From: Octopus vulgaris
Lineage: Eukaryota
DNA: 64,000 nt
Direction of reading: 5' to 3'
Assembly: GCA_951406725.2 (NCBI GenBank)
Contig: OX597820.1
Location: 108,376,001-108,440,000, forward strand
Positions within the stretch are counted from its first letter, which is position 1. The number at the start of each line of letters is the position of its first letter. This document shows positions 16,340-62,909 of this stretch, one piece after another. The position numbers and the translations under genes are program-made. Under the pieces are notes generated by a model. The model was not told the DNA's origin. It made no database searches and saw only the letters and a list, made by a program, of their open reading frames with translations.

Positions 16340-19300
16340 TGTGTGTGTGTGCTACAAATCTGACCTATCAACATGTGGAAAGGGTAACTGCTGAACAACA
16401 ATCTTTTTTGTCATAGCACAAAAGATTGTACAGCAGCTGACCTGGCTATATCAATCTCACAGATGGGACTATCCCCAATACACAAGATCACCACAGCAAA
16501 TAGACCCAAGGTGGGCACCACTGGCAACAACACACATCACATCAGTGCTCTTACTGAACATCAGAGGACTGTTAACACTTAGTAACAGGACAAAAATCCC
16601 TTTCTTGAGAGACCTTGTTGCATGCAATCAAGCCTTATGCATAGCACTTACAGAAACACACCCGAAACCAGATATAGCAAATGCAGAAATACACATACCA
16701 CAGTATGTTGTATTACGGACCGACAGAAAAGAAAGGAGTCATGGTGGAGTTGCTATGTACAACCGCAAAGACCTCACACCCCAGGTCCTTTTGTCACACT
16801 CAAATTCAGTGACACACTAATTGTACATATAAGGCAACTCAGTGTAGTTATATGTGCTACATATCACCCTCCAGATGCTCCAAGTCATGTAAGCAAGTTT
16901 GAAAACTGCCTTACAAAAATAGAAGTTCTAGTCACATTAGAACAACACATAAGTGTACTTCTTATGGGAGACTTCAATCTGCACAATGTCAGATGGCCCG
17001 AGGGCCTTTCTCTCTCAGGAATGACACAATGTGAACAAGGACAGGTGAAGTCCCCTCTGAACCTCATCAACACTGTATATGGAGCAAGTAATACTCCAAC
17101 CAACCAGGGCAGGTAACACACTGGATCTCTGCTTCACAAATAATATGGATCTCATCCATAATGTGAAAGTTACATTGACACTACTCTCAGATCACAACAC
17201 GGTAGAGCTGACCATGTACGGGCCAAAGGAAAGCATGGACATGCAGCCTACTAGAAACTCTCAGAATCTTTCCAGCTTGAACTTCCATAAGGCAAACTGG
17301 AAACAAATTGAGAAAGAGAGCCTCAAACAAAACTGGCCTAAATGTCTCTCCTCATCGGATATCAACATGAAACTTCAGCAATTCATGTCTGTAATGCAAG
17401 CCATATGCTACAAATGTGTCCCAGAGAGAAAAGCCACTGTATACAAAAACAAAATCCCCAGGGAGAGGAAAATTCTTATGAGACGGCGTATAAAAGTTTC
17501 AAATCGCCTAAACAAACAAATTGAAAGCAGTGAAAATACAACTGCTGGAGATTGAAAAAATTCTGCAACTCTCCCATAAAAAAGAAAGAACAGACAAAGA
17601 AGCCTGGGCTATAGACAGCATAAAATCTAACCCTAGAGCTTTCTACAAGTTTACCAAAGAAACAGCTGCAGTGCACTGCAGCATAGGGCCATCCTTGAAA
17701 AAGATGGTACACTCACAGGAAGCCCAATGAGGATAAGTGAAATACTAAATGAGCAATTCAAAAGTATCCCCCCCCCCGGACTACTTGCATGTCAGCAATC
17801 TGACTGACTTTTTTACTACTGCAGATATAAAAACAGAGGCAATGATGATCGATTACATCAATATAAAGGAAGACGATATAATAAGAGCTATAGATGAAAT
17901 GAACCCAAACTCAACTACTGGCCCTGATAAATTCCCAGCAATCCTTCTAAAAGCATGTAAGAGAGTCCTAGCAAAACCACTGCAGTTCCTCTTTCAGAGC
18001 TTCCTTGTAACTGGCAAACTTCCAAGAAAACTGAAGGAGGGTAAAATATGCCCTATTCATAAAGGATGTAGCAGAGCGGAGACCAAGAACTACAGACCTA
18101 TCTCTCTGACCTCACACATCAGCAAGGTCACGGAACGAATAGTCAGAAGAAAATGACTTGCTGCCTGACATCCAACATGGTTTCCAACCAGGTAGAAGCT
18201 GTCTGATTCAGCTCTTACAACACTATGACTGGGTGCTGAAACAGCTGCTCAACCACTCAAATGTGGAAGTGATATATCTCGACTTTGCAAAGGCCTTTGA
18301 TAAAGTCGATCATGGAATGATATGTCATAATCTGCTTGATCTTGGCATAGTTGGATAATAGGGAGAATGGCTTCATGACTTTCTGAAGGATAGAAGTCAG
18401 GTGGTAGCAGCCAATGAGGCCACCTCCAATGACATGCAAATAGTGAGCAGTGTTCCACAAGGCACTGTTTTGGGACCACTACTGTTCAGAATGGCCCTCT
18501 CAGATATGCCCTCAGCCATGCAAAGAGCCACGATCACAAGTTATGCAGATGATAGAAAAGTTTCACTGGTAATACAGAACCCTGAAGACACTATGCACCT
18601 GCAATGTGAGCTGGACGAAATATACAAGTGGGCTGAAAAGAATAGCATGCAGTTCAATGCTGAAAAGTTTCAAGCTTTATGCTATCAGCATGCAAAACTA
18701 AATGCAATACCTATTAAATACACTTGACCTGGAGGGATTGCAATCCCAGAGGCACAATCAGTGCAAGAGCTGGGTATTTACACAAGTAATGATGCAACCT
18801 TTCATGTGCATGTTGCTAAATTGGCAATGAAATGTAGGCGGCTGACCGGATGTATTCTTAGAACCTTTAGAACAAGAGATCAGGAAACTATGAAGGTCCT
18901 CTGGAGGACACTTGTCCTAAGCCACTTTGACTATTGCTCTCAGCTATGGTCACCAACCAGTGTCAAATTAATCTCAGGACTTGAGGCAACCCAACGAAGC
19001 TACACGAAGCAGATAGCCTCTATGCAGCATATAAGCTATTGGGAAAGACTCAAGAGATTAAGACTCTATTCCTTAGAGCATAGGCAAGAAAGATATGCCA
19101 TAATATACATCTGGAAGATCTTGGAAGGACTTGTCCCAAACTTTGGCATCGAGAGTTACACAAATACTAGAACTGGGCGCCACTGCATCGTGCCAAGGAC
19201 TCGAAATTTGCCATCATGATTTGGGACAATATACTTCAAGAGCCTGAGCTTCAGAGGACAACAGCTCTTCAATATCCTTTCGAAGAACCTGAGGGACCTG

Positions 19301-23164: not shown

Positions 23165-23562
23165 GTATGTGCATACGTGTATTTGTGTGTGTATGATATA
23201 TGAAGTTCAGGATGAGGATTTGGACTGGGTTGGCAATGTGTATGTGTATGTATATATATATATATATATTGGAGTAAACGCATTAACATAGGTATAGAAA
23301 TACATATCTGATTAGTACTCTAATCGGAGTATTTGTGGATTTATGGATATACTTATGTTGTCATGTAAGTGGACATATGCATGTCCACTTAGATGCGTGT
23401 GTATGCATATGCGAGGAGTTTTAGTGTATAGGTAAAGTCAAGTATAGTTGTGCATATAGAATTTTGTACACGCATAAATTATGGTGTTAATATATATCTG
23501 ATTAGATTTAGTATTAGAACACTTGGAGATCAGTAGATATACTTTAGAATCATACCTTCTCT

Positions 23563-23601
<39 letters not shown>

Positions 23602-24461
23602 GTATGTGTGTGTGTGTGTGTGTATACCTATAATTTATTTAATTTAATTTATCTACTTTTATTTGAAATGGTTGGAGCAAGAGTACAAACAGATATGGAA
23701 ACCAACACCCTGCCATTATGGTATACAAATGCTATATTTTTCCACACTCATAATGATGATAATAATAATAAAGTATACACAAACATGGCTTAGGCAATGA
23801 CATTAATATACCTTAAACAAATACACATAGACTAGCTCATCTTTTATAATAAAATTAAACAATTAAATTACAACCCAATTGGAAGAAATGCCTCATAGTA
23901 TTTTGCCTGATACTCTAACAATTTCCCCAGGAAGTCAGAGATTGGCAAGTTTGAGCACTGTGCTAAATGCTGCCTGTTTTGATTTCAAATTGAAGTTCTA
24001 ATATGGTGCACTTGACATAAGGAGCTAATATACTAAGTACCAGTAATATATTGTGGTTAATTCAACTGACAATACTCCACCTCTGTAATAAGTGGTCTTC
24101 TCTCTATTAAAAAAAAATCATTCATATGATAATTTTTATTAATGTTATTTTTTTTTCTGAAAATTAATTTTATTCAAGCCTTGAATGAGACCACAATTTC
24201 CTTTATGAATTCAAACCTAGCTTGCATCTTGGCTTATTGATTTTGTAAATATCAGTAGTAAAGTGTTTGAAAAAGGTGGCCTAAATATTGTAGAATAGTC
24301 TGAAAGTGATGCTGAGACACTTGTCACTTCTAGCATCTATTGAAATTCCATTTATTTGTGGTCTACAGAATCTGTAACTCTGCTCTCGATACCAGTGATC
24401 AACTGCACGCACAAGCATAACCTTGCTAGTTATTTGACTGTTTTTGGCAACTCCATCGATC

Positions 24462-24569
24462 ATGTGGGTAGCAAGACTGCTTCAATTTCCTGTAGCTCCC
24501 ACTTCCCTCCGGCTATTTCTGCGATGTCTCTCATCTGATCAGTATTGGTCTACTGCTAACACTGTACAG
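24462..24569 (+). CDS. HARS: Candidate alternative 5' coding exon of HARS encoding a mitochondrial targeting presequence (MWVARLLQFPVAPTSLRLFLRCLSSDQYWSTANTVQ)
   Basis: ATG follows an in-frame TGA; 36 codons end at a phase-0 donor CAG|GTATGT, compatible with the phase-0 exon at 35763. The peptide is Arg/Leu/Ser-rich with no acidic residue in the first 25 aa and contains RCL|SS. An assembly gap lies between this exon and the rest of the gene. Confidence 0.65.
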
Positions 24570-26234
24570 GTATGTCTAGTCAATTAAACTTCAAAACTCT
24601 TGTGATCTTCATTTGATTTAATTAATTTGTTATAATTTAGAGTGGCATTTTGAATATTTCACTAGTATGATACTTGGTGTTTTCAGCTCTGATGAATGTT
24701 GAAATGACCCCTGTGGGTAAAACATCTATTAGTGCAAATGAGTATGTTTTATGTCATACTAAACAGACTTGTCTGGGAGAAAGAGATTTCAAGCCTATGT
24801 TGCCCATTTGTGTTCAGTGGACAATTCAGCTTTGTAAATGTTGGCTGTTTTATATATTTAATGGAGAGAAACTTGTAGAATATATTATGTTGCTGATGCT
24901 TCAAATTCCATTGAGATCATCCTTTCCTTTCATCCTTCCAGAGTTAATAAAATAAAGTATTAATCTAGTGGGGGGGCGGGATTTAAATATGTTCTTGTAC
25001 ATGTTGAAATATTTTTCTTTATTTTGTGATGTGATTTGGTAGCTGGAAATTGAAAAAAAGCACTGTTCATCATCACCATCAATTAACATCCATGTTCCAT
25101 GCTATCATGGATTGGATAGTTTGACAAGATCTGATGGGCCCAAGAACAGTATTGGGTTCCAGTGTCTGGTTTGGTATGGTTTCTGCAGCTGGTTATCCTT
25201 CCTAATGCCAATCATTTTATAGTGTATGCTGGGTGCTCTTTTTTGCACCTATTGAGGTCACTATACTGCTTGCATGACTGAGCCATGGTGGAAAGAAAGA
25301 AGTCTCTTTATACTGGAAGAATGAGAAGTAAAAAGGATTAAAGTTTGAGAGGAAAAGGAGGCAGAGTAGAACAAGTTTGTTGCTGTAGGAGAACTATATA
25401 ACTCCTGGCACTGGAAAGCAGAAAAATAATGGTGATGAAGAGTCAGAGTGGACCCTCAAGGTACAAAGTGGGTAAGACTAGTATGATAGAGGTACTAGGA
25501 GTTAGTGGGGGAGTAGATGAAGTCTGATAGTGCAAATTGGCAGAATAAAAATGATACATTAAATGGGAGGATGAAAAAGAGATGACATGCTGTTGGGTAG
25601 GCTGCAAGAAGAGAGAGAAGCAGGCACAGTGGAGGCAGATGGAGTGATATACATACATATATTTATTTTTTATGTATATATATGTATATATATATATGTG
25701 TATATATATATATGTATATGTATGTATATATATATGTATGTATATATGTATGTATATGTATATATATATGTATGTATATGTATGTATATATGTATGTATG
25801 TATATATGTATATGTATATATATATGTATAATATATATATATATATATATGTATAGTATATATATATGTATATATATATATATATATATGTATGTATATA
25901 TATATGTATATATATATATATATATACTATGTATGTATATATATATGTATATATATATATATATATCTATGTATGTATATATATATGTATATATATATAT
26001 ATATATATCTATGTATGTATATATGTATATATATATATCTATGTATATATATATATGTATGTATATATATATGTATATATATATATATATATCTATGTAT
26101 GTATATATGTATATATATATATCTATGTATATATATATATGTATGTATATATATATGTATATATATATGTATGTATATATATATGTATATATATATGTAT
26201 GTATATATATATGTATGTATATATATATATGTAC

Positions 26235-26297
<63 letters not shown>

Positions 26298-26314
26298 TAT
26301 ATGTATATATGTAC

Positions 26315-26377
<63 letters not shown>

Positions 26378-26397
26378 TATATGTATATATATGTATG

Positions 26398-26428
<31 letters not shown>

Positions 26429-26462
26429 GTGTATATATATATATGTATATATATATGTATAT

Positions 26463-27562
<1,100 letters not shown>

Positions 27563-27682
27563 ATATATATATATGAAGTTAATCCAAACAAGAAAACACA
27601 GAAAAAAAGAGAAAAAAACACAGCAACGCAGGACGTGGAACAATTAAAGTATTATTGATGTTCAGGAAAGAAGGGAAGGAGG

Positions 27683-27717
27683 GTTTAACGTTTCGAGCGG
27701 AGCTCTTCGTCGGAAAC
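27683..27717 (-). ncRNA. Minimal hammerhead-like motif with extra A after A9
   Basis: Minus strand reads GTTT-CCGACGA-A-GAGC-TCC-GCTC-GAAAC-GTT-AAAC; decayed copy at 11240-11274. Confidence 0.5.
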
Positions 27718-27799
27718 AAGGAGAAGGAAAGATCCCAAGAAGGGAAGACAGAGGAAAACTTATTTGAGCTGGTGGTGCTCAAGAGATCACATGTTGAAA

Positions 27800-27819
27800 A
27801 TATATATATATGTATATAT

Positions 27820-27888
<69 letters not shown>

Positions 27889-27974
27889 TGTATGTATTTA
27901 TATATATATATATATATATGTATGTATATATATATATATATATATGTATGTATATATATATATATATATGTATG

Positions 27975-28011
<37 letters not shown>

Positions 28012-28038
28012 GTATGTATATATATATATATATATGTG

Positions 28039-28069
<31 letters not shown>

Positions 28070-28141
28070 ATATATATGTGTGTGTATATATATATATGTA
28101 TGTATGTATGTATGTATATATATATATATAATATATGTATG

Positions 28142-28206
<65 letters not shown>

Positions 28207-28211
28207 GTATG

Positions 28212-28310
<99 letters not shown>

Positions 28311-28376
28311 ATATATATATATGTATGTATGTATATATATATATATGTATGTATATATATATATGTATGTTGTATG

Positions 28377-28418
<42 letters not shown>

Positions 28419-28444
28419 TGTATGTATATATATATATATGTATG

Positions 28445-28477
<33 letters not shown>

Positions 28478-28482
28478 GTATG

Positions 28483-28560
<78 letters not shown>

Positions 28561-28570
28561 ATGTATATAT
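27800..28570. repeat. (TA/TATG)n microsatellite; similar tracts at 25670-26460, 30173-30860 and 39215-39575
   Basis: Directly visible. Confidence 0.95.
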
Positions 28571-28880
28571 ATGCTAAGATAATTTGTATAGTGAATATAT
28601 ATCAGTACTGGTTTAGGTCATTTATGAGACCTTTTCAACTGTAACGTATTATATAATTATGTATTTATATATATATGTATGTATATAAAATTGTATGTAT
28701 ATATATATGTATGTATATATATATGTATGTATATATATATGTATGTATTATATATGTATGTATGTATATAAGATATATTATGTATATATATATGTATGTA
28801 TATATATATGTATGTATATATATATGTATGTATATATATATGTATCAGAAAATGCTAAGATAATTTTATAGTGAATCTTT

Positions 28881-28918
28881 CAGTACTGGTTTCGGTCATT
28901 TTGAGACCTTTTCAACTG
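28881..28918 (-). ncRNA. Minimal type I hammerhead, U3-A8 core variant (second, mutated copy at 28603-28641)
   Basis: Minus strand reads CAG-TTGAAAA-GGTC-TCAAAAT-GACC-GAAAC-CA-GTA-CTG. Confidence 0.6.
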
Positions 28919-29154
28919 TAACGATTAAATAATTAAATTTAGAAAAATTAGAAGAAAAGTTTTTTTAAAAGAATATTTCTATAGTAGTGTTCAGATATAA
29001 GTAGCATTCTGCCTTTCTCTGACTCCCTTGTTTGCACTTGTGTGTTCGAGGTCGTTGTGAGTTCTTGGTAGGGTAGGTGAAGAATAAGGAGGCTAGATAT
29101 ATATGTATATATATGTATATATATGTATATATATGTATATATATATATATATAT

Positions 29155-29460
29155 CATCATCATCATCATCGTTTAACGTCTGTTTTCCGCGCTAGCACAG
29201 GTTGGACGGTTTGACCGGGGTCTGGGAAGCCAGGAGGCTGCACCAGGCTCCAGTCTGATCTGGCAGAGTTTCTACGGCTGGATGCCCTTCCTAACGCCAA
29301 CCACTCCGCGAGTGTAATGGGTGCTTTTTACGTGCCACCTGCACAGGTGCCAGGGTGGGTCTGGCATCCTCACGATCGGTTCGAGCTTTTAACGTGCCAG
29401 CGGCACGGAAGCCAGCCAAGGCGGCGCTGGCATCGGCCACGTTCGGATGGTGCTTTTTGG
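29155..29460 (-). mobile_element. RTE-type 3' tail fragment (others near 16115, 25070, 51200 and 58890)
   Basis: (CAT)n plus GGATGCCCTTCCTAACGCCAACC. Confidence 0.75.
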
Positions 29461-30183
29461 GGGTGCAGGTAATATAGGGAAGCACCAGTGGGGAGGGCTG
29501 GGGTAAGGAGGAACGATGACAGCTAGGGTTGATGCAGGTTCGTAGGAAATAAAACGTAGGACATCACGAGTGGGGGAGGGGACTGGAAGGAGATAGCCGG
29601 TTGAGGCAGTGACAGATTCAATAACAGGAGGAAACATAGGATAGGTGGGGCGGTTGATGAGCTGCGGCGCTAGCTGCTTGTCTTGGTGGTGGTGGGGGGG
29701 TAATACACAGTGAAAGCATGTGAGGAGGAGGGGTAGGAGGGAGAGACACACATAATGGTGGTGGGGGAGGGCAGATCTGGTGTAGATGGTGTGAACAGTG
29801 AGAACAGTGTTCACCGGTATTGGTTGTGGGGGTGGGAAAGGGCGGGCGCACCGCGAATGGTGAAGATCGAATTAAAGGATTGAAGGTACTTTAGAGAAAC
29901 GGGCGGGAAATGGCGATGTTTTTTGGGGTAGCATAGAGAAAGAAAAAGGAAAGCAAAGCACGTTGGTGGTATAAGTTCAAAACATTTAAACGGTAGGCAA
30001 ATGTATGTATGTATGAAAAAGAAGTGAGAAATCTTAGCTTGCTTTAGACATCGCTGTGAATCAGAGAAGAAATGATAGGAGTGGAGAGAGAAGGTGCATA
30101 TAAATAGATTGACCGGAAGTCTGAGTTTGGGGAAGAAGGAAGTTTGGTTGGGGCTAATAATGGCGATTTTGGGTATATATATG

Positions 30184-30236
<53 letters not shown>

Positions 30237-30535
30237 GTATGTATATATATGTATGTATGTATATATATATGTATGTATGTATATATATATGTATGTATGT
30301 ATATATATATGTATGTATATATGTATGTATGTATATATGTATGTATGTATATATATATGTATGTATGTATATATATATATGTATGTATGTATATATATAT
30401 GTATGTATGTATATATATATGTATGTATGTATATATATGTATATATATATGTATATATATATATGTATGTATGTATATATATATGTATGTATATATATAT
30501 ATATGTATATATATATGTATGTATATATGTATATA

Positions 30536-30583
<48 letters not shown>

Positions 30584-30607
30584 AATGTATGTATATATAT
30601 ATGTATG

Positions 30608-30640
<33 letters not shown>

Positions 30641-30723
30641 GTATGTATATATAAATGTATGTATATATATATGTATGTATATATATATGTATGTATATAT
30701 ATATATATATGTATATATATATG

Positions 30724-30800
<77 letters not shown>

Positions 30801-31305
30801 GTATATATATATATATGTATATATATATGTATATATATATATGTATATATATATATATGTTGTGCAGGTGGCACATAAAAAGCACCAACCGACCGTGGCC
30901 GATGCCAGACCCCTCTGGCACCTGTGCAGGTGTAGCAAACCAAATGGCGGTGCCCCAGCATGGCCACAGCTCATTAGCTGAAACTGGAAAAATCAAAATC
31001 AAAATCAAAAATCATATAAATATAAAAGTATAAAAATGTAAAATATAAAAACTTATGCATAAACTTCATAATGCTACACTTATATAATATAATACTCATA
31101 GGTACAATAATGCAAGGTAAACAAAACAAAATAAAACAAAATATATATCAGTGTATATATTAATATTAATAAGCACAGTTATTATACATATTTGGCTAAT
31201 AGTTTTAAAAAACTAACACATAGGGAGATGAAAAATAATAATTAAAACCATGGTTCAGTTCATAAAATTATAAAGCTATAAAAGTCAATAAAAATTACTA
31301 TTAAT

Positions 31306-31336
<31 letters not shown>

Positions 31337-31606
31337 GATACAGTTATGTTTGCACCAAGTCCATCCTTTCAAGATCGAAATAACTATGAGTTTAGAAATT
31401 CTGACCACTAGGTAATGATTATTTAGATTAATTCGATTGGCTAGTAGTTTGAAATTTAAATCACAAAAGAAATTTTACGGTTAGTTAGTCAAGGAACGCC
31501 AATATTCACACGCGCATCCACAGATCCATCGCACATACATACGTAATTATATGTATACACACACACATACACTTATACACATACATAACCACACAAGCAA
31601 CAACTA

Positions 31607-31706
31607 NNNNNNNNNNNNNNNNNNNNNNNNNNNNNNNNNNNNNNNNNNNNNNNNNNNNNNNNNNNNNNNNNNNNNNNNNNNNNNNNNNNNNNNNNNNNNN
31701 NNNNNN
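31607..31706. other. Assembly gap (100 N)
   Basis: N run. Confidence 1.
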
Positions 31707-32330
31707 AGCAAGCCATTTGCAGTTCCATCTGTGCAGACCTGAGAGTTCAGAGAGGTCCTCCTTTATCGTTGTTGCCTAGGTCTTCAGCTGCCCACCCGTG
31801 CATTTGCACCAGTTGGGGAGAGGAGAAGGGAAGAGGACATCGCGAATCAGCTCACCCTCTGGATGCCGGACTGCATGACCGAACCACCTTAAGCACTGAT
31901 GTAGAAGCATCGAAGGGAGGGGCTGGAGATTCAGGCGATGACAAAGATTGGCTGTAGGAGCCCGATCAATGCGTCGGAGAAAGTCATTGTCGAACACCTC
32001 CAGCCTTCGCTGATCAACTACCCTCATAGGCCATGTTTCACAACCATACAGGATAGTACAAACGCCAGCCTAGTAGATTTGCCCTTTGGTCACCAAGGAG
32101 ATCTCTCTTCTGTCCCACAGGCACTGCTGGAGGCACACGAATGCAGATCTGGCAGCACCTATGTGACGCTCGACCTTGGCTGCGCCCTGGTCTGTTGGAA
32201 ACACCATTCAACCCAGGTAGATGAAGGACTCCACATCCTCCAGCTCGACGCCCTCAAGAACGTTTGGCTGCCAGTCATCTGCTGCGACCAGAGACGTCAT
32301 CACTTTGGTTTTGCTGACGGTCTAATTTAG
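31707..32330 (-). mobile_element. RTE-clade LINE 3' fragment
   Basis: RRLEVFDNDFLRRI ... LRWFGH. Confidence 0.8.
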
Positions 32331-33277
32331 TTCCTTCTGAAAAACTAAGTAAAATTATATATTTTTTTAATTTATAGATTATTTTCTCTTTATCTAAGAA
32401 ATAGTATAGTTTGTAATTATTGTAGCTTTATGCTTTTGTTTATTGCATTTATGGAGATATTTCCTCTGATAAACTAAGTAAGTTTGTACTTTTTACTTCT
32501 TAGTTACTTAGAATAATGTTTATAGTAGTAAGAATAAATAAATGCGAGCAATTATTATATATTATCATTATATGTAATCTTTTTGAATAATTATCCATAT
32601 ATGAATATTTGTTCTAGTACCTATGATATTTAGTGGATATAGTAAAATTATGTTCTTTTGAACTTGTATATAAACATATAAATTTATAGAATAAAAATAT
32701 TGGATTAACTTAATTTATTTCCTTCTGTTAAACTAAATAAAACTCTGATACTTTATTTATTTATATATTATTATCATTATTATGTAAAAAAAATTGGTAT
32801 GGTTTTATAGTAATCATAACTCTATACATTTGTTTAACATCAGTATATTTGGTAGTAATATACTGAGTGAATGAATTGTTGATTAAGAAGTTTTTTATTG
32901 AACTTAAGTGTCTGAATTAAATATATCCTTATTTATTTATCTTTTTTCATCATAATATATGGTAATTTTAAATAAAATATATTTCCTACTCCACCATAAA
33001 TTTTTGATATATTATACACTATATAGGTATGGATATTATATTATAAAATGGCCAGTGATTATTTTTGATTAATATCATTGGAGATGCATAAGAACATTTT
33101 ATGGCCGTTGTATATTTTCTTTACTTATTTTATCCATTTGAATTTTGTTGTTCTTTTTATTGTATTTATTACGCATTTGAATTATTAACACTCACACTTC
33201 TAAACATAGGTATTTTGTGAATCAGTAGTTTTGTGATTTCGCAGTCCTTACATAGAATTTCATCTGTTTTTTTAACA

Positions 33278-33364
33278 AAAGCCCTGAAGAGGCTTGTATA
33301 CATAGATGTGAATTTATTTTATAAATTCACTAGTGTATATGAGTCGAAACATGTTGTTGGCTTT
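33278..33364 (+). ncRNA. Type I hammerhead ribozyme motif with extended stem II
   Basis: Stem I AAAGCC/GGCTTT; CTGAAGA; stem II GGCTTGTATACA/TGTATATGAGTC plus inner hairpin GTGAATTTAT/ATAAATTCAC; GAAAC-ATGTT-GTT. Confidence 0.8.
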
Positions 33365-33889
33365 ATATTTGTTTTTTAAAGATTTGTTGTGTTATATTAT
33401 ATCTTTTTATTGAATATTATAAAGTAAAAAAAATTTTTAGTTTGTCAATTATATTTCTCTATTTCATTATATATATATATGTACATACATAGACCTATAT
33501 ATTACACATATACATATGATGTGTGTTTGTGCCTCATTGTCTTGACACCATATGATAGTTATAAATGTCTTTCATGCTAGCCATGTCCTTTGTTTCCGGT
33601 CTTCTGTGAAAATATGTCTGGCCATGAGAAATATTACTTTGGTGAGCATTGATGACTGAGAGGGTATTGTACCATAGAAGATCTGCCTCGACAAATGCTG
33701 TCCGACCCTTGCCATCATGGAAAAGTGATGGCAGTAAGGATGATTTAATTATGATTGCTCTGTTTAAAATGTTGACTTATTACCCATCAGCTGGTATTGA
33801 TTAGATCTACATACCCTTGCACCTCAAATTTATGGTCTTGTAACAATTTTGGATACTATCATTATTATTTGTATTATTACTTTTAGAGT

Positions 33890-34550
33890 TAGGGTAATGG
33901 ATTGGCAATATGCCTTGCAAGATTTGGAAATATGCCTTGCAAGATTTGTTCCAACTGTTCTGAGTTCAAATCTTGTTGAAATTGAATTTTGCTTTTCATC
34001 CTTTCAGGCTGGGTAAAATAAAGTACCAGTCAAGTACTGGAGTTGATGTAATCAAGTAACTCTCTCCCGCGAGAATTGCTGGCTTTGTACCTAAATTAGA
34101 AGCAGTTATAACTTTTAGTATTGCAGATGGCGGAGTATGTAGATTACCAGAAAAAATATCTTGTGGTATTTAATCTGATCCCTTTAGGTTTTGAGTTTCT
34201 TTTGAGAGCCAACTTTATCATTCATCCTCTTGTAATTAGCAATAGTAAGTATCAGTTAAGAACAGGAATTAATTAAATATAGGAGCAATTTATTCAATGT
34301 TCCCTCTCTCTCTAATGTAAAGCATTGTCACTGGCAGAATCATTAGTATGTTTAACAATCATTAGTATGTTTGGCATTTCTTCTGGCTCTTTACAACCTC
34401 AGTTCAAATTCTTCTGAGGTTGACTTTGCCTTTCATCTTTCTGAAATAAAAATAAATACCAGTCAAGCACTGTGGTTGATGTAATCTACTAACCCCCTAC
34501 TCCTAAAATTACTGGCCTTGTGCCAAAATTCGAAGTCATTACTATTATTA
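33890..34550 (+). mobile_element. Decayed tandem SINEs (family B)
   Basis: GAGTTCAAAT ... TTTCATCCTTTC ... AAATAAAGTACCAGT repeated about three times. Confidence 0.65.
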
Positions 34551-35597
34551 TTACTTTTGTTGTGCTTTTTATCTGTAGTTTATCTGTAGTTAAATTCTAT
34601 GTACCCCTCAGTTTAGCTTTGACTGAACATTACCAGAAATCAAAGGCTTTTCAGCCAACAGCATCCCATCAACTTTTTTTTTAATAGTGAATTTTGTGTT
34701 TGTGTGTATATAAATGTTTCATGTATTTAACAAGACCCTATGTAGAATGTGTGCAGTGTCTAATAATGATATTTCTGAGGAATTATTGCAGATGTTTGAT
34801 GCCTCTAAACTTTGCAGCATTTTTTTTACAACTTATATTTCAGTTATGTTGGGAACAATTTTTGCATTCATTTCCCACATGCTTTATCACTCACTATCTC
34901 TAGATCCTAGTATTTCAAATGTTTTCCAACATTTTCTTGAGCAATGTTCTGATCTGAATAAATTGCTGATAAAAATTCTTTCCTAACTTTGTCTCTAATA
35001 ATGATAATCACTGTACAGTTTGCTCTCATTTCTTTGTCAGTTTGAATAAGCACATCTCAGAATATTGTTGTGGTTCTGTCATTTTTCTTTCACAGTTTTT
35101 GGTGTTTATGCCATTTGTTATCTTTCTTTGGTAATATTTAAATATTACCCAGTGAACATCATTATTTGTTTGATTAGACCTGTATTTTGTGAACTAAAAC
35201 TTGATAATTTAAGACAGTGTAGTTAATTATTTCCTGATGTGCAGTACATAATAACTAATTACTGCCTCTTGTTCAGTTGGTTATATTTTTGAATAGTTTT
35301 TTCTGAATATTCTATTAAGTGGTGTAGTTATAAAGTGTTCTGTTTCAGCTTTTAACTAATAGTTAAAATCTTAGACAGAAGACTTCTAATCGGTAAACCA
35401 TTTTCCTCTTTCTTTCACTTTTATCTTACTCTTGTTCAGTATTACCAGAGACTGACCTTTTAGGGGTTTAACTCCACTCACACACACACACTTGTACTTA
35501 AGTCTTTCGTTCTTTGTTTTTTTTAAAAATTTGCTTGCTTTCCTCATCTTTAAAAGCCTGGAAATTAACTCCAATATACTCAAATAAGGAACATGAA

Positions 35598-35735
<138 letters not shown>

Positions 35736-35762
35736 ATCTTTGTTTCTTTTCTGTCTTTGCAG

Positions 35763-35852
35763 ATTGCTGAGGAAGTTGCCAAACTTCTCGAGTTGAAAGC
35801 GAAGCTTGGAGATGAATCTGGACCAAAGAAATTTGTCCTCAAGACTCCAAAG
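35763..35852 (+). CDS. HARS: HARS exon: second WHEP helix and linker (IAEEVAKLLELKAKLGDESGPKKFVLKTPK)
   Basis: Acceptor TTTGCAG, donor AAG|GTAAGG, 90 nt; resembles the metazoan HisRS segment EEVAKLL.LKA.LG...KFVLKTPK. Confidence 0.95.
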
Positions 35853-36479: not shown

Positions 36480-39205
36480 TTTTATGTTAGCTCTTGCAGA
36501 TGGCTAATTGGGCTTGTGGCTAGTCATTAGCGACTTTAGGCTCGAGGCCAGAAGGATACCAAGATACAGACAAATCCAAAAAAGGATTTGGTAGGTAAAG
36601 AACCCTTCACATGCTCAGAGATTTAGGGACATCTTCATCAAGAAATCTGAGAGGGAGGAGGAGCTACAGACATCAGACATTGAAGGTAGCTGGAAATTCC
36701 TACAGGACAGCTTGCTGAGTGCCACAGACCAAGTCAGTGGATGGTGCAAAGTCCCTTCCAGACCTAGAGTTACATGGTGGTGGAATAGTATGGTAGACAA
36801 TGCCATTAGAGCAAAGAAACAGGCCTGGAAAGCCTGGAAGGGTTGGGGTAGCAGGGAACTGTACCTGGAAGTCAAAAGTGAGGCTGGGCAGCAGGTATAT
36901 ATAGCCAAGGGCAAAGCGGAAAAGAAGAGGTTTGCCAATGTCCAGCGACGTGAGGACCAAAGAACTGAGGTATTTCGTATTGCAAGACAGTGTGTGAGAG
37001 AAAATTGTGATGTCACAGGAGAGAAATGTGTCTGCATGGATGATGGTGCACATGCTTTTAATGTTTCTGAAAAGAAAGAGGCTTGGAGAAGCTATTATGA
37101 AAGACTGCTGAATGTGGAGAATAAATGGGAGGAGGGAGAGCCTGCCAAATGTTCACCCAGTAGAAGGACCAGCTATCCAAATAAACAGCTCCCTAGTAGA
37201 TAAAGTAACAAAGGGTATGAAGCCAGGAAAAGCCCCTGGCCCATCAGGAATCACTGCTGAGATGCTTAAAACATCTGGTGGTGTGGACTATGGCCTAGTC
37301 ACCCGCATTGTAAACCAGGTAGTTCATGATGGAGTCATACCCAATGACTGGCATAGCAGCACCATAGTCTACTGCTACAAGGGTAAAGGTGATGCTCTAG
37401 GTAGAAATAACTACAGAGGCTATTTCTGGATCAGGTGATGAAGGTCATGGAGAGGGTCATAGCCCATCTCATTAGGGAGAGAGACTGCTTAGATGAGATG
37501 CAGTCCGGTTTTGTGCCGTGTAGAAGCACCACTGATGCTATATTCCTGGTTCGACAACTGCAGGAGAAATACCTAGATAAAGATAAACCCCTATACTTAG
37601 CTTTTGTGGACTTGGAGAAAGCCTTTGACAGAGTCCCCCGATCCCTTATCTGGTGGGCGATGCGGAAACTGGAGATTGATGAATGGTTAATAAGGGCTGT
37701 ACAGGACCTTTACAGAGAGGCCGTAAGGTTAGGATTGGCAATGAGTACAGTTAAGAATTCCGGGTAGAAGTAGGGATCCACCAAGGTTCAGCCCTCAGTC
37801 CCCTTTTATTCATCATAGTCCTTCAGGCAATAACAGAGGAATTCAAGACGGGTTGCCCCTGGAAGCTGATGACCTGGCCTTCATAGCAGAATCACTACCG
37901 GAACTAGAGAAGAAATTTCATGTGTGGAAGCCAGGTTTAGAATCAAAAGGCCTTAGAGTCAATGTAGCAAAGACCAAAGTTCTAGTAAGTAGGAAAACAA
38001 ACTCACCACACACCCCTTCAGGTAGGTGGCCCTGCTCGATCTGTAGAAAAGGTGTAGGTAGAAACTCCATAAGATGTACCTAGTGTAAGCTATGGACACA
38101 TAAGAGGTGCAGCAACATCAAAGGAAAATTAACCGAGAAGATAGCTTTCATGTGCGGCAGATGCACAGGGGCAATAGACACCATTGATACTCAGAAAACA
38201 GATTCATCACACTCCAGGGGGAGAAACTAGAAGTAGTTGATAGTTTCCGCTACCTAGGAGACCAAGTTAGTAGTGGGGGTGGATGCTCAGAGAGTGTTAC
38301 CACTAAAATAAGAATAATCTGGGCAGAGTTTAGAAAGCTTCTACCCCTACTGGTGACAAAGGATCTCTCGTTCAGAGTGAAAGGTAGATTGTATAACACA
38401 TGTGTGTGAACTGCCATGCTTCATGGCAGTGAAACATGGGCCATGACTGCGGAGGACATGCATAGGCTCGAAAGAAATGAAGCTAGCATGATCAGTTGGA
38501 TGTGTAATGTCAGTGTGCACACATGAGTGTAAGCACCCTGAGAGAAATGTTGGACATAAGAAGCATAAGATGTGGCGTGCAAGAGAGATGTTTGCATTGG
38601 TATGGTCATGTACTACGGATGGATGAGGAGAGATGTGTGAAGAAGTGCCACTACAAAACAGTTGAAGGAATCCGGGGTAGAGGTAGACCTAGGTAGACAT
38701 GGGATGAGGTAGTCAGGTATGACCTTCGAACATTTGGCCTCACAGAAGCAACAACAAAAGACCGAGACCTCTAGAGATATGCTGTGACTGCGAAGACCCG
38801 AAAAATGAAGTGAGTTTATGGCTCACAGGATGGCCTGCTGTGCTTACCTTGGGTCATTGGGTGACCTGGTGTGCTTGAGGAGACCTATTGAGTCACGTAC
38901 ATCAACATCAAAATAAAAATCAAACAGAAGTTGTTGCTGTGATACCCGAACTGGTGGCACCATCTGAATGTGGCCGATGCCAATGCTGCTTTGACTGGTG
39001 CTGATGGAATGTAAGAAGCACCAACCGATCATGGCATGTAAAAAGCACCCACTACACTCACGGAGTGGTTGGCATTAGAAAGGGCATCCAGCTGTAGAAA
39101 CACTGCCAGATCAGACTGCAACCTGGTGCAGCCCCCTGGCTTTCCAGACCCTGGTCGAACCGTCCAACCCATGCTAGCATGGAAAGTGGAAGTTAAATGA
39201 TGATG
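36480..39205 (+). mobile_element. RTE-type LINE pseudogene with a Cys-rich (PHD-like) insert
   Basis: KAPGPSG, NNYRG, FVDLEKAFDRVPR, ADDL and WPCSICRKGVGRNSIRC motifs; (GAT)n tail. Confidence 0.92.
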
Positions 39206-39574: not shown

Positions 39575-40630
39575 TGAGGTTGTCAAGAATGTTCTTGGAG
39601 TTTTTAACCTTTAAATTCTGATGCACATAATTCGGCTCAAACGAAACTTTATTAATTGAATTAAACTTCATCAGAATCAACACACTCTTGCTAATGCAAA
39701 ACAAGTTTATTTATGCCAGTAGCGTAAAAATTCTGTGTTCAGGTTGCAATGAAATCGTTGAAGGTGTGTTTGGCATCATCTTGGTTTTTGAAGCATTTCT
39801 CATGCAGGAAGTTGTCGAGATGCTTGAAAAAAGTGGTAGTTGTTCGACAAAAGGTCTGGTGAGTATGACAGATGAGGTAGAATTTCGTAGCTTAAATCGT
39901 TCAACTTCTGCAGGGTCAGTTTCGCGATGTGCAGCCAAGCATTGTCGTAGAGAAGAATCGGTCCTTTTCTATTGACCCATGCTGGCTGTTGTTGTCGGAG
40001 TTTCTTATGCATTTCATCCATTTGCTAACCATACTTCTCCGCCATAATGGTTTCGCCTGGATCCAAAAAGCTGTGACCACCAAACAGACCATGACCTTCT
40101 TTTGGTGCAACTTTGGCTTCAGGAAGTGCCGTGGATCTTTGTTGGCATTCAACCACTGAGCTGAGCATCACCGGTTGTCATAAAGAATCCTTTTTTCATC
40201 GCAAGTCACAATCCAGTCGAGAAATGGGTCATTCTTGTTGCATAAAAGAAGGGAAGACAACACTTCAAAACAGGGTTTTTTTTTTTGGTTGTCATTCAAT
40301 TCATGCAGTACCCATTTCTCAAGTATTTTTGTTTTTCCAATCTCTTTCAAGTGGTTGGAAATTGTTGTATATGTTACGTCTAATTCAGAAGCAAGCTCTC
40401 GATCAGTTGTGTGTGGATTGGCTTTCACTAAGATTCTTAGTTGATTGTTGTCAACATCTGATGGCCGACCACTACGCTTATCTTCAAGACTTGTGTCACC
40501 ATTACGAAATTTCATTAGTGGTTCCTGGGCCAAACACATCATTGAAATCGCGAGCTGTTTCAGCAGCTTTTCGGCCTAGCTTCAGCTGCAATAAGAAAAT
40601 TGTGCAAATTTGCTTTTTGTCCATGTTGTA
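39575..40630 (-). mobile_element. mariner (Hsmar1/SETMAR-like) transposase pseudogene
   Basis: MDKKQICTIFL...RKAAETAR, WVLHEL, IVTCDEKRILYDNR and YSPDL motifs. Confidence 0.9.
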
Positions 40631-42397
40631 TTCAACATTCACTGTCACATCCTGGCGTCACTACCTCGGTAAAGCTTATTACGGCTCAGTTTTTCTGGCC
40701 TAATATGCGCCAGATGATCACCGATTGGGCATGCTCTTGTGTAAAATGCCAGCGTTCTAAAATCCACAGGCATATTCACGTTCCTCTTGGACAGTTTTTT
40801 CCTCCAGAGACTCACTTTTGCCATGTCCACACTGATCTGGTTGGACCATGGCCTGTCAGCCGTGGTTTCTCTTACATATTAACATGCGTCGATCGTTTCT
40901 CTCGTTGGCCAGAGGCCATTCCAATAGTGGACATTTCCGCTGTGTCAGTTGCTCGAGCTTTCACTTCAAACTGGATTGCTTGCTTTGGAGTCCCTGCTAA
41001 AATAACCACTGATTGTGGACGCCAGTTCAAGGCTTCCCTATTTTGTGAATTATCACGAATCCTAGGAGTTCATCCCATTTGTACGACCAGCTACCACCCA
41101 GCCTCCAACGGGATGGATGCTTTCACAGGAAACTGAAGGTTGCCCTACGTGTCACTTCTGATCCACAGTCTTGGACAGAATTCCTGCCTATCATTCTTCT
41201 TGGTTGTCGCACTGCTGTTAAAACAGACTTAGGTTTCTCCTCTGCTGAACTCCTCTATGGTACTATCCTGGCACTCTCTGGTACAATGTTAGTGCCAGAC
41301 AACTCATTGCCTCCTGATCCAACATGGTATGTCACTCAGACTTTGCTCATATTTCTCGAGTCTTCCACCCATGAATCCGTGTGACCAGTCTATTCCCTCT
41401 CGTGTCCCTCCGGATATTGACAAATGGACTCATGTTTTGTTCGGGATGATTCTGTCAGAGGACCTCTCATTTCTCCTTTTAAGGGACCATTTCATGCGGT
41501 ATCGCACACATACAAAACTTTTAGTCTCAACATCCATGGTCAGGCAGAGACCGTGTCGGTTGACAGACTTAAAAGGGCACATTTTGAGGTGTCCACACCC
41601 TTCAATGACATGCCAAAGACGCCCTCCTTTGATATTTTACAATCACCTACACATCCACCTGCACATGCACCTTTGACCATACCATCACCTACATCTTCAC
41701 CTTCGTCGCCACTACTAACATGAATAAACCCTATGTCACCAGGACTGGCTGCACTGTGCATTGGCCCAAAAAACTCACTAAAACTATTTATATCTGACAA
41801 TCTCTTTTGTGTTTCCTGTGACAGACAACTGCTTTCTTGTGTTACTGGACAGTTCCAATACTCTGCCAATGAACATTTTGCCAAATTTTGTGCATGCTAA
41901 TTTATATTTCTTGCAGTTATTATTCTATTTGACTTATCACATTTTTGTACCATATCTTGTTGATTGCAATCAGTTACCATCTTTGCTCTTTCTTGTGCCT
42001 GCTCCAATTATTTTGTTTTTGTACTTCCGCACTCAGGGGGAGCCTTTGTAGCGGCACAAGTAGTCAGCAACATATTGGATGAGATCTTGCGACAGCCATT
42101 GCCATCTGGAGCGAGACCTCACCTGCATCCATTTACCATGTGTGAGATCACAAGGCTCGCGATGGAGAAAACTATATAAAGGGAAAACCTTCTTCAAATT
42201 TCTTTTCTTCGGCGCCACAACACACCAGCACTGGCTGAACAACACTACTGGCTGTGGTTTTCTGCCTGTCTATCTCCAGAGGCAATGCACCCACACTATC
42301 AGAGCTTAAGATGGTAGCTGAGAGTAGCACACTTCACCTTTCCTGTAAATAAACCAGTTGTAATTAGCAGTTGTAAATGCCGGAAGCCTGAACTACA
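40631..42397 (+). mobile_element. Gypsy LTR retrotransposon 3' remnant: integrase, PPT and 3' LTR (42047-42397)
   Basis: SHPG...CVKCQ, HTDLVGP, DRFSRWPEAIP, TDCGRQF and YHPASNG motifs; PPT AGGGGGAG; LTR TGTAG...CTACA containing TATATAAA and AATAAA. Confidence 0.92.
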
Positions 42398-45288: not shown

Positions 45289-45408
45289 GGCACTCGGGAT
45301 TTTAGTCCTCAGCAGATGACTATCAGAGAAAATGTGTTTGCTACAATTATTGAGTGCTTCAAGCGTCATGGGGCTGAGACCATTGACACACCCGTCTTTG
45401 AATTAAAG
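45289..45408 (+). CDS. HARS: HARS exon: GTRD and motif 1 ([40 protein letters not shown])
   Basis: TGTAG acceptor, AAG|GT donor, 120 nt, HisRS signature. Confidence 0.97.
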
Positions 45409-46648: not shown

Positions 46649-46744
46649 GAAACCCTTACTGGAAAATATGGTGAAGATTCTAAACTGATTTATGATTTGG
46701 TTGACCAAGGAGGTGAAATTCTATCACTGCGTTATGATTTGACC
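46649..46744 (+). CDS. HARS: HARS exon ([32 protein letters not shown])
   Basis: ATCAG acceptor, 96 nt, LRYDLT HisRS motif, followed by the U12-type donor GTATCTTTT. Confidence 0.97.
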
Positions 46745-47349
<605 letters not shown>

Positions 47350-47689: not shown

Positions 47690-47797
47690 GATATTGATAT
47701 TGCTGGTCAATATGATCCAATGATCCCTGATGCTGAGTGTGTGAGGATGGTGTCCAGTATCTTAACTGAACTCGATATTGGAAACTATGAGATCAAG
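47690..47797 (+). CDS. HARS: HARS exon (DIDIAGQYDPMIPDAECVRMVSSILTELDIGNYEIK)
   Basis: GATAG acceptor, AAG|GTGAGT donor, 108 nt, in frame. Confidence 0.96.
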
Positions 47798-53834: not shown

Positions 53835-53933
53835 GTGAACCACCGCAAACTCTTAGATGGTATATTTGCGGCATGTGGTGTCCCAGAGAAAGATTTCCGA
53901 CCAATTTGCTCTGCTGTTGACAAACTTGATAAG
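53835..53933 (+). CDS. HARS: HARS exon ([33 protein letters not shown])
   Basis: TTTCCCAG acceptor, 99 nt, DKLDK motif, GC donor AAG|GCAAGT. Confidence 0.95.
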
Positions 53934-56283: not shown

Positions 56284-56377
56284 ATGGATTGGTGTGATGT
56301 TCGTAAAGAAATGACAGATGAAAAAGGCCTTGCCCCAGAGACAGCTGATAGAATATGGGAATATGTTAAATTGAAAG
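56284..56377 (+). CDS. HARS: HARS exon ([32 protein letters not shown])
   Basis: TTTTCTAAG acceptor, 94 nt, phase-1 GT donor; W..V..EM..EKGL motif. Confidence 0.94.
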
Positions 56378-57221: not shown

Positions 57222-57349
57222 GCAAAATGGAACTTGTTGACCGATTAAACAATGATAGTGTATTGATGGCACAAAAACCTGCTGCTGAAGGTGTTGCTGA
57301 CATGAAACTGTTACTGAAGTACTGTGACATTTATGGTTGTCTAGACAAG
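57222..57349 (+). CDS. HARS: HARS exon (KMELVDRLNNDSVLMAQKPAAEGVADMKLLLKYCDIYGCLDK)
   Basis: TTGCAG acceptor, AAG|GTAAGT donor, 128 nt restores phase 0. Confidence 0.93.
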
Positions 57350-60183: not shown

Positions 60184-60256
60184 GTATCTTTTGATCTGAG
60201 CCTCGCAAGAGGACTAGATTATTACACTGGATTGATATATGAAGGTATTCTCAAAG
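60184..60256 (+). CDS. HARS: HARS exon: HisA loop ([25 protein letters not shown])
   Basis: CTTCAG acceptor, AAG|GTAAGA donor, 73 nt, RGLDYYTG HisRS hallmark. Confidence 0.97.
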
Positions 60257-62727: not shown

Positions 62728-62909
62728 GTTACACCTATAAATCAGATTCTGGAGATTCAACAGAATCCGTTGCTGTTGGCAGCGTTGCTGGTGGAGGACG
62801 TTATGATGGTCTTGTTGGAATGTTTGACCCAAAAGGCAAAGAAGTACCTTGTGTTGGTGTCAGTATTGGAATAGAACGCATCTTCGCCATTATGGAAGCT
62901 AAAGTTTTG
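62728..62909 (+). CDS. HARS: HARS exon: HisB loop and motif 3 (YTYKSDSG...[13 protein letters not shown]...[18 protein letters not shown]); gene continues beyond the window
   Basis: TTTCTAG acceptor, TTG|GTAAGG donor, 182 nt, GGRYD and GIERI motifs. Confidence 0.97.

What the first reader, a model, noticed from the sequence alone, without database searches (positions are those of the whole stretch)
24369..24569. Hidden mitochondrial-targeting exon suggests a dual-localised single HARS gene
Seen: a 36-codon ORF absent from the ORF track, in apparently unique sequence, ending at a strong phase-0 donor that fits the exon at 35763. The peptide resembles a presequence, with RCL|SS as an R-3-type site. 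A possible acceptor (CTACAG|, exon start 24369) is in the same frame but hits TAA at once, so splicing from an upstream WHEP exon would end that ORF and leave ATG 24462 as the start. Established: several animals, including zebrafish and C. elegans, make both cytosolic and mitochondrial HisRS from one gene. Inference: this exon replaces the first WHEP helix in a mitochondrial isoform.
Basis: partly seen in the sequence, partly recalled or inferred. Interest (0 to 1): 0.7.

Follow-up and report, generated by a model that had tools for sequence, protein, structure and literature searches.

The report
Octopus HARS mitochondrial cassette exon
The single octopus gene for the enzyme that loads histidine onto tRNA has an optional 201-base exon that is spliced in or skipped in assembled transcript-like contigs, and including it likely swaps the cytosolic start for a predicted mitochondrial address tag, the same design already shown in zebrafish.

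Summary
Window 24369-24569 is cassette exon 2 of the only HARS gene found in this genome. Exon 1 (WHEP helix 1) lies 16.7 kb before the window. One contig from a related organism spans the exon exactly, joined to exon 1 in front and to the exon at 35763 behind. Another run shows exon 1 joined straight to 35763. Inclusion stops the exon-1 frame after two more codons (TAA 24375) and leaves ATG 24462. That ATG opens an arginine-rich, acid-poor 36-residue leader with an R-3-like site, in frame with the enzyme. Zebrafish hars and human KARS1 use this same layout (PMC5608375, PMC7600831). Five other bilaterian genera show both N-termini at the same junction. Mitochondrial import is inferred, not tested. 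One extra: the exon, including its 93 non-coding bases, has 0 of 201 differences in two related organisms, while nearby intron differs at 23 of 390. That hints at regulation. Neither look-up in the scan's notes showed this gene. New member of a known kind; interest 0.3.

The parts
24341..24368 (+). 3' splice site (acceptor) of the cassette exon, ending TACAG
   Evidence: sequence; contigs of X1, X2, X6 and X11 start their match at 24369; exon-1 letters in front are shown for X1 (8 nt), X2 and X11 (29 nt)
24369..24569 (+). Cassette exon 2 of HARS, 201 nt (67 codons)
   Evidence: X11 record 10 and X6 record 26 (260 nt each) cover exactly 24369-24569 with 0 other letters; skipped in X23 record 9; single copy
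24375..24377 (+). TAA that ends the exon-1 (WHEP) frame two codons into the cassette, making a 34-codon upstream ORF; further in-frame TGA at 24396 and 24435
   Evidence: translation; it lies 192 nt before the next junction and 84 nt before ATG 24462
24369..24461 (+). 93-nt leader part of the cassette, no ATG in any frame, invariant in organisms C and D
   Evidence: no unusual fold (z = 0.09 for the whole exon); no Rfam match inside it
24462..24569 (+). 36-codon predicted mitochondrial presequence, in frame with the exon at 35763; R21-x-L23|S24 site
   Evidence: 3 R, no acidic residue before position 26, 53% S/T/A/L/R, peak hydrophobic moment 0.66; same type as the alternative N-termini of relatives; import not tested
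24570..24575 (+). 5' splice site GTATGT, phase 0
   Evidence: sequence; X11 contig leaves at 24569 into the exon at 35763
35763..35852 (+). First shared exon (second WHEP helix and linker; residues 33-62 of P0124)
   Evidence: target of both junctions
45289..45408 (+). HARS exon, residues 63-102
46649..46744 (+). HARS exon, residues 103-134
47182..47307 (+). HARS exon, residues 135-176
47690..47797 (+). HARS exon, residues 177-212
53835..53933 (+). HARS exon, residues 213-245
56284..56377 (+). HARS exon, about residues 246-277 (ends read from the AG and GT beside the matched block)
57222..57349 (+). HARS exon, about residues 277-319 (ends read from the AG and GT beside the matched block)
60184..60256 (+). 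HARS exon, about residues 320-344
62728..62909 (+). HARS exon, about residues 344-404. Two more exons were mapped beyond the window end; exon 1 lies outside the window at G000:C7:108359264-108359359 (L007:3264-3359)

Best explanation
Window 24369-24569 is an optional second exon of the only HARS gene found in this octopus genome: skipping it joins exon 1 to the enzyme and gives the WHEP-containing, likely cytosolic form, while including it stops the exon-1 frame and leaves ATG 24462, which likely starts a mitochondrial precursor with a predicted cleavable presequence. Shown: both splice forms in contigs, the stop, the in-frame ATG, one locus. Inferred: ribosomes reach ATG 24462 by leaky scanning past the exon-1 ATG, or by reinitiation after the 34-codon upstream ORF across the 84-nt spacer; the presequence is imported; it is cut near R21-C-L|S24 (R-3 rule, recalled); and the mature enzyme, lacking the first WHEP helix, charges mitochondrial tRNA-His.
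For: Inclusion: X11 record 10 (260 nt) covers 24369-24569. Its 29 letters in front equal the end of exon 1 (0 of 29 differ). Its 30 letters behind equal the start of the 35763 exon (2 of 30 differ, both synonymous). X6 record 26 has the same length and span; its loose letters were not displayed. X1 and X2 enter at 24369 with exon-1 letters in front. Skipping: X23 record 9 (770 nt) has 105 letters on exon 1 and continues with the exact start of the 35763 exon. P0124 (named O. vulgaris), P0016 (Argonauta) and P0126 (Sepia) are skip-type proteins; 492 of 510 residues of P0124 map exactly on this locus. Single locus: 13 of 13 matches with P0124 (16 candidates scored) and 10 of 10 with the divergent P0109 (12 scored) lie here. 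Relatives: of the 10 clusters looked up, Sepia, Ischnura, Watersipora, Ornithodoros and Mobula have a WHEP-type and a basic, acid-poor N-terminus before the same junction, on contigs of equal length per species. Precedent with experiment: zebrafish hars exon 2 (309 nt) carries a stop for the exon-1 start and a second in-frame start, and the tagged variant co-localised with mitochondria (PMC5608375).
Against: No localisation or proteomic test was possible, and no TargetP or MitoFates run. The leader is only moderately basic (3 R in 36) and its hydrophobic moment (0.66) equals that of the WHEP helix control. The exon-1 ATG is in a strong context (A at -3, G at +4) and the stop lies 192 nt before the next junction, so part of the included mRNA may be decayed (rules recalled). 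The 24569-to-35763 letters were displayed for 1 of 4 runs laid (X11, organism D). In X1 and X2 the listed pieces end inside the exon, at 24526 and 24490. The short sides are 29-30 letters, just under the tool's 31-letter rule for bridging. The runs are only guessed to be RNA and no DNA run was laid as a control. No octopus protein with this leader scored in the protein collection (27 candidates, 0 at E<=10; weak). The genome search is insensitive to distant homologues: the Pfam HisRS model missed even this gene.
Confidence: 0.88

Rival explanations
1. The exon is purely a poison exon: inclusion sends HARS mRNA to nonsense-mediated decay and no protein starts at ATG 24462; mitochondria would get HisRS another way.
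For: Strong-context first ATG, 34-codon upstream ORF, stop 192 nt before the next junction. The non-coding leader is invariant: 0 of 93 against 23 of 390 in intron, Fisher p = 0.012. High conservation of poison exons is recalled.
Against: It leaves the in-frame ATG and presequence-like peptide unexplained, as well as the same kind of N-terminus at the same junction in five other genera and the zebrafish localisation. No other HisRS locus was found. Included forms are stable enough to be assembled in 4 of 4 runs laid; those runs were chosen for holding the exon.
Confidence: 0.06
2. The mitochondrial protein comes mainly from transcripts that start at or just before this exon (alternative promoter), or inside exon 1 below its ATG. 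The exon-1-joined form would then be secondary.
For: X2 record 17 (24073-24395) runs unspliced across the acceptor. One exon-1 contig begins at L007:3267, three bases after the A of the ATG; two others begin at 3255 and 3257. Contigs cannot show starts.
Against: The contigs that cover the exon body enter it exactly at 24369 (X1, X2, X6, X11). The unspliced piece can be pre-mRNA or DNA; X1 also has a purely intronic piece (24585-24860).
Confidence: 0.05
3. Chance ORF, splicing noise, or an assembly misjoin at the N gap.
For: A 100-N gap at 31607-31706 lies between the two exons. The exon sits in a repeat-rich first intron.
Against: Exact AG/GT boundaries recur in four organisms and four studies. 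The exon is invariant while the intron diverges. Exon 1 and the 35763 exon, on opposite sides of the gap, are joined in X23. All mapped exons are collinear.
Confidence: 0.01

Closest known systems
Zebrafish hars exon-2 cassette (PMC5608375; parts 2 and 3 of 5 of the text read: end of Methods, Results, part of Discussion)
   Same: Single HisRS gene. Cassette exon 2 between the WHEP-start exon and the shared exons. The exon-1 start is stopped inside exon 2 and a second, in-frame start lies in exon 2. Products differ only at the N-terminus.
   Different: Here a mollusc; exon 201 nt against 309 nt. Localisation was shown by tagging in zebrafish and is only predicted here. In the parts read, the paper does not discuss conservation of the exon's non-coding part.
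Human KARS1 (LysRS) exon-2 inclusion (passages of review PMC7600831; passage of PMC10196762; the original paper, PMID 10952987, seen only as a citation)
   Same: Including exon 2 brings a stop for exon-1 translation and a downstream start with a mitochondrial N-terminal addition; skipping gives the cytosolic enzyme.
   Different: Different synthetase gene.
Single dual-localised HisRS genes of Drosophila, C. elegans and yeast HTS1 (passages: PMC4826098, PMC10196762, PMC7600831)
   Same: One gene serves both compartments.
   Different: Yeast uses two transcript starts. Drosophila is a Mitoprot prediction on a longer polypeptide. C. elegans is stated to use alternative splicing. I did not see their exon layouts, so identity of mechanism is untested.
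Annotated two-isoform HARS models of Sepia pharaonis (P0126 and P0048), Ischnura, Ornithodoros, Watersipora, Mobula
   Same: WHEP-type and presequence-type N-termini exchange at the same residue. Seven of the eight presequence-type leaders printed, and the octopus one, are 29-38 residues ending in Q; so is the eighth, a goby model with no partner looked up.
   Different: The leader sequences show no evident similarity to the octopus one by eye.

Membership tests
Eukaryotic HisRS (HARS) gene | WHEP, HisRS catalytic and anticodon-binding domains encoded by collinear exons | tested here: met
   P0124 has PF00458, PF13393 and PF03129 over cut-off; 492 of 510 residues map exactly, in 13 blocks; the last 18 residues were not found in the stretch fetched
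Zebrafish-hars / KARS1-type dual-targeting cassette exon | One gene, no separate mitochondrial paralogue | tested here: met
   13 of 13 and 10 of 10 matches at one locus; close paralogues would show, distant ones may be missed
Zebrafish-hars / KARS1-type dual-targeting cassette exon | Exon 2 included between exon 1 and the first shared exon | tested here: met
   X11 record 10 with both flanks displayed; X2 and X1 front junction; short sides 29-30 letters
Zebrafish-hars / KARS1-type dual-targeting cassette exon | Exon 2 skipped in another mRNA | tested here: met
   X23 record 9, 105 letters on exon 1 and the 35763 exon behind
Zebrafish-hars / KARS1-type dual-targeting cassette exon | Stop in exon 2 ends the exon-1 frame; a downstream start in exon 2 is in frame with the enzyme | tested here: met
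   TAA 24375, ATG 24462, phase-0 donor
Zebrafish-hars / KARS1-type dual-targeting cassette exon | The exon-2 peptide has presequence properties | tested here: inconclusive
   Basic, acid-free for 25 residues, R-3-like site, 53% S/T/A/L/R against 25% for exon 1; the moment does not separate it from the WHEP helix; no trained predictor available
Zebrafish-hars / KARS1-type dual-targeting cassette exon | The included isoform is imported into mitochondria and charges mitochondrial tRNA-His | not testable with these tools
   needs tagging, import or complementation
NMD-coupled poison exon | Premature stop more than 50-55 nt before a downstream junction (rule recalled) | tested here: met
   192 nt
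NMD-coupled poison exon | Included mRNA rises when NMD is blocked and yields no protein | not testable with these tools
   no raw reads or perturbation data were offered

The most novel reading that the evidence does not exclude
The stop-then-presequence cassette at this HARS junction is an ancestral bilaterian switch, older than the mollusc-vertebrate split. In octopods its invariant 93-base leader is a regulatory element: splicing of one exon, coupled to partial nonsense-mediated decay, would set the ratio of cytosolic to mitochondrial histidyl-tRNA synthetase by tissue or condition.
Probability: 0.25. Interest if true: 0.55.

Novelty: new member of a known kind. Interest (0 to 1): 0.3.

Why it matters
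It completes the octopus HARS gene. None of the three named octopus HARS models seen carries this N-terminus (P0124, P0014, P0121), so the likely mitochondrial enzyme is missing from them. It extends a splice design shown in zebrafish to a mollusc, and the same junction in arthropod, bryozoan and ray models suggests that this was the state before vertebrates split HARS1 from HARS2. The exon's invariance offers a testable handle on how one gene divides an essential enzyme between two compartments. None of this overturns a known rule.

Tried and rejected
No RNA holder was listed on record: all runs are 'RNA?' guesses, kept as contigs, with no raw reads. Contig depths (X1: 152 on the cassette, 205 on exon 1; X6: 6.5 and 10.1; X23: 670 on exon 1 with only the skipped form laid) cannot rank parts of a gene, so no inclusion ratio or tissue difference is claimed. 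X21 laid nothing on exon 1, which proves nothing. The Pfam PF13393 genome search found 0 matches, missing even this gene, so it was not used as evidence of absence. The WHEP family search gave 6 matches at other loci and missed this exon 1. tblastn and motif scans for exon 1 inside the window were negative because it lies upstream. Conserved RNA structure was rejected: the exon folds no better than shuffles (z = 0.09). The 3 Rfam matches in 23500-25500 all lie at 23548-23630, far under their cut-offs. None of the 6 inverted-repeat pairs has an arm in the exon. No TGCATG or ACTAAY motif occurs in 24001-24950. A-to-I readthrough of the stops was rejected: there are three in-frame stops, and no other letter is listed inside the exon in the 4 runs (contigs drop rare variants). 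The MAFFT alignment of the 36-residue leader with full-length proteins was uninformative and was dropped. Cassette against exon-1 conservation is not significant (0 of 201 against 2 of 103, p = 0.11 for organism C; against 2 of 59 flank letters, p = 0.05 for organism D). No structure or complex job was run, as it would not bear on the question.

Full report
Observation. The window (G000:C7:108376001-108440000) holds most of a HARS gene on the plus strand. There is an acceptor ending TACAG before 24369 and an in-frame TAA at 24375, with TGA at 24396 and 24435. The first ATG of the exon is at 24462. A 36-codon frame (MWVARLLQFPVAPTSLRLFLRCLSSDQYWSTANTVQ) ends at CAG|GTATGT at 24569, in phase with the exon at 35763-35852. 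The stretch is single-copy. In 52,403 bases upstream of 35763, only 2 ATG-started frames of 25-45 codons end at a comparable donor, and only this one is basic and acid-poor.

The gene. A search with one window exon returned cephalopod HisRS proteins, and cluster look-up gave P0124, named O. vulgaris by its source. Searching G000 with P0124 gave 13 matches, all at this locus, including the WHEP-start exon 16.7 kb before the window. That exon is L007:3264-3359, 96 nt, 32 codons, with ATG in a strong context and a phase-0 donor. Exact 8-mers place 492 of 510 residues in 13 collinear blocks; the last 18 residues were not in the stretch fetched. A divergent query (P0109) gave 10 matches, again all here. 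A close HARS2-type paralogue is therefore unlikely. A very distant one cannot be excluded, because the Pfam model missed even this gene. Exon 1 holds the first half of the WHEP domain (profile positions 2-23), so the cassette replaces that helix.

Splicing. All 24 runs listed are contigs; 18 are guessed to be RNA. Four were laid on 23800-25400. X11 record 10 and X6 record 26, each 260 nt, cover exactly 24369-24569 with no other letter. For X11 the 29 letters in front equal the end of exon 1 (0 of 29 differ) and the 30 behind equal the start of the 35763 exon (2 of 30 differ). X2 (29 letters) and X1 (8 letters) also enter from exon 1, but their listed pieces end inside the exon. The 24569-35763 letters were thus displayed in 1 of 4 runs, and the short sides fall just under the tool's 31-letter rule. 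Lengths of 29 and 30 are what a 31-letter assembly graph gives when the rival path is exon 1 joined to 35763: both branches start with A, and exon 1 ends in A (inference; word length assumed). The skipped form was then seen directly. On exon 1, X23 record 9 has 105 letters on the exon and continues with the exact start of the 35763 exon. X1 and X6 records stop one letter past the donor, as expected at a branch, and X21 laid nothing. No DNA run was laid as a control, but G000 shows no retrocopy. The joins span the N gap at 31607-31706, so it is not a misjoin.

Mechanism. Skipping gives the 510-residue WHEP form, cytosolic by family knowledge. Inclusion turns exon 1 into a 34-codon upstream ORF that stops 84 nt before ATG 24462. 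The new leader has 3 arginines, no acid before D26, 53% S/T/A/L/R and an R-x-L|S site at 21-24 (the R-3 rule is recalled). Its hydrophobic moment does not separate it from the WHEP helix. How ribosomes reach ATG 24462 is inferred: leaky scanning, which a short leader would help (exon-1 contigs begin at L007:3255, 3257 and 3267, though contigs cannot show starts), or reinitiation. Import and cleavage are untested.

Relatives. Among the 10 clusters looked up, five genera have both a WHEP-type and a presequence-type N-terminus before the same junction: Sepia (P0126 against P0048, P0127, P0128), Ischnura, Ornithodoros, Watersipora and Mobula. The other clusters gave one form or partial models. The eight presequence-type leaders printed are 29-38 residues and end in Q, as here, with no evident sequence similarity to the octopus leader. 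Whether those exons are cassettes was not testable. No protein with the octopus leader scored in the collection (weak).

Known systems. PMC5608375 (parts 2 and 3 of 5 read) describes zebrafish hars: a 309-nt exon 2, a stop for the exon-1 start inside it, a second in-frame start, and mitochondrial co-localisation of that variant. It calls the single gene ancestral. PMC7600831 (passages) gives the same layout for human LysRS. PMC4826098 and PMC10196762 (passages) list fly and worm HisRS as dual-localised. Six searches (listings only, top rows) showed no title on a mollusc HisRS isoform or on decay of such an exon. The library lacks most subscription journals, and supplements were not searched. 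The scan's own notes gave 0 hits by words, and none of the 8 shown of 682 by place concerned this gene.

What is left unexplained. The exon has 0 of 201 differences in organisms C and D, including the 93 bases before the ATG. A nearby intron contig of organism C differs at 23 of 390 (Fisher p = 7e-5 for the exon, 0.012 for the 93 bases). Against making much of it: the baseline is one low-depth contig, C and D are not independent, and the contrast with exon 1 is not significant (p = 0.11). No RNA structure, Rfam family or inverted repeat explains it. Raised conservation of alternative exons is a general trait (recalled). With the stop 192 nt before a junction, a regulated, partly decay-coupled switch stays possible (0.25).

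Verdict. A real, spliced cassette exon that most likely makes the mitochondrial HisRS precursor (0.88), by the mechanism already shown for zebrafish hars. New member of a known kind; interest 0.3.

Noticed in passing
L007:3097-3197, minus strand (G000:C7:108359097-108359197): A head-to-head transcript lies 67 nt before the HARS ATG. Contigs in X1 and X23 leave it at a minus-strand donor near 3096 to three different downstream sequences. One maps about 2.8 kb away and shows no long ORF in the 1.1 kb examined. A CCGGAAG motif (ETS-type, recalled) sits at L007:3227. It looks like a bidirectional promoter; the partner gene is unidentified.
   Followed up: partly
window 18647-18667: The O. sinensis model P0014 begins with seven residues that also occur in a reverse-transcriptase-like ORF here in intron 1, and the O. 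bimaculoides model P0121 starts at internal Met72. Both models appear to lack the true 5' exons.
   Followed up: partly
P0016 (Argonauta): Its first WHEP helix is unusually acidic (10 D/E in 33 residues) and lacks the QG..VR.LK pattern seen in the other skip-type N-termini.
   Followed up: no
P0048 against P0127 (Sepia): The two presequence forms differ at the last leader residue (K against Q), and P0128 lacks four leader residues; possibly allelic or splice-site variants.
   Followed up: no
window 24921-24960 and 25070-25240: Short high-copy repeat fragments just downstream of the cassette draw many unrelated contigs.
   Followed up: no
window 17500-19200, 36600-38700, 39900-40580, 40550-41130: HARS introns hold decayed mobile-element ORFs by look of the translations: two LINE-like stretches, a mariner-like transposase and an integrase-like stretch; no family scan was run on them.
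   Followed up: no
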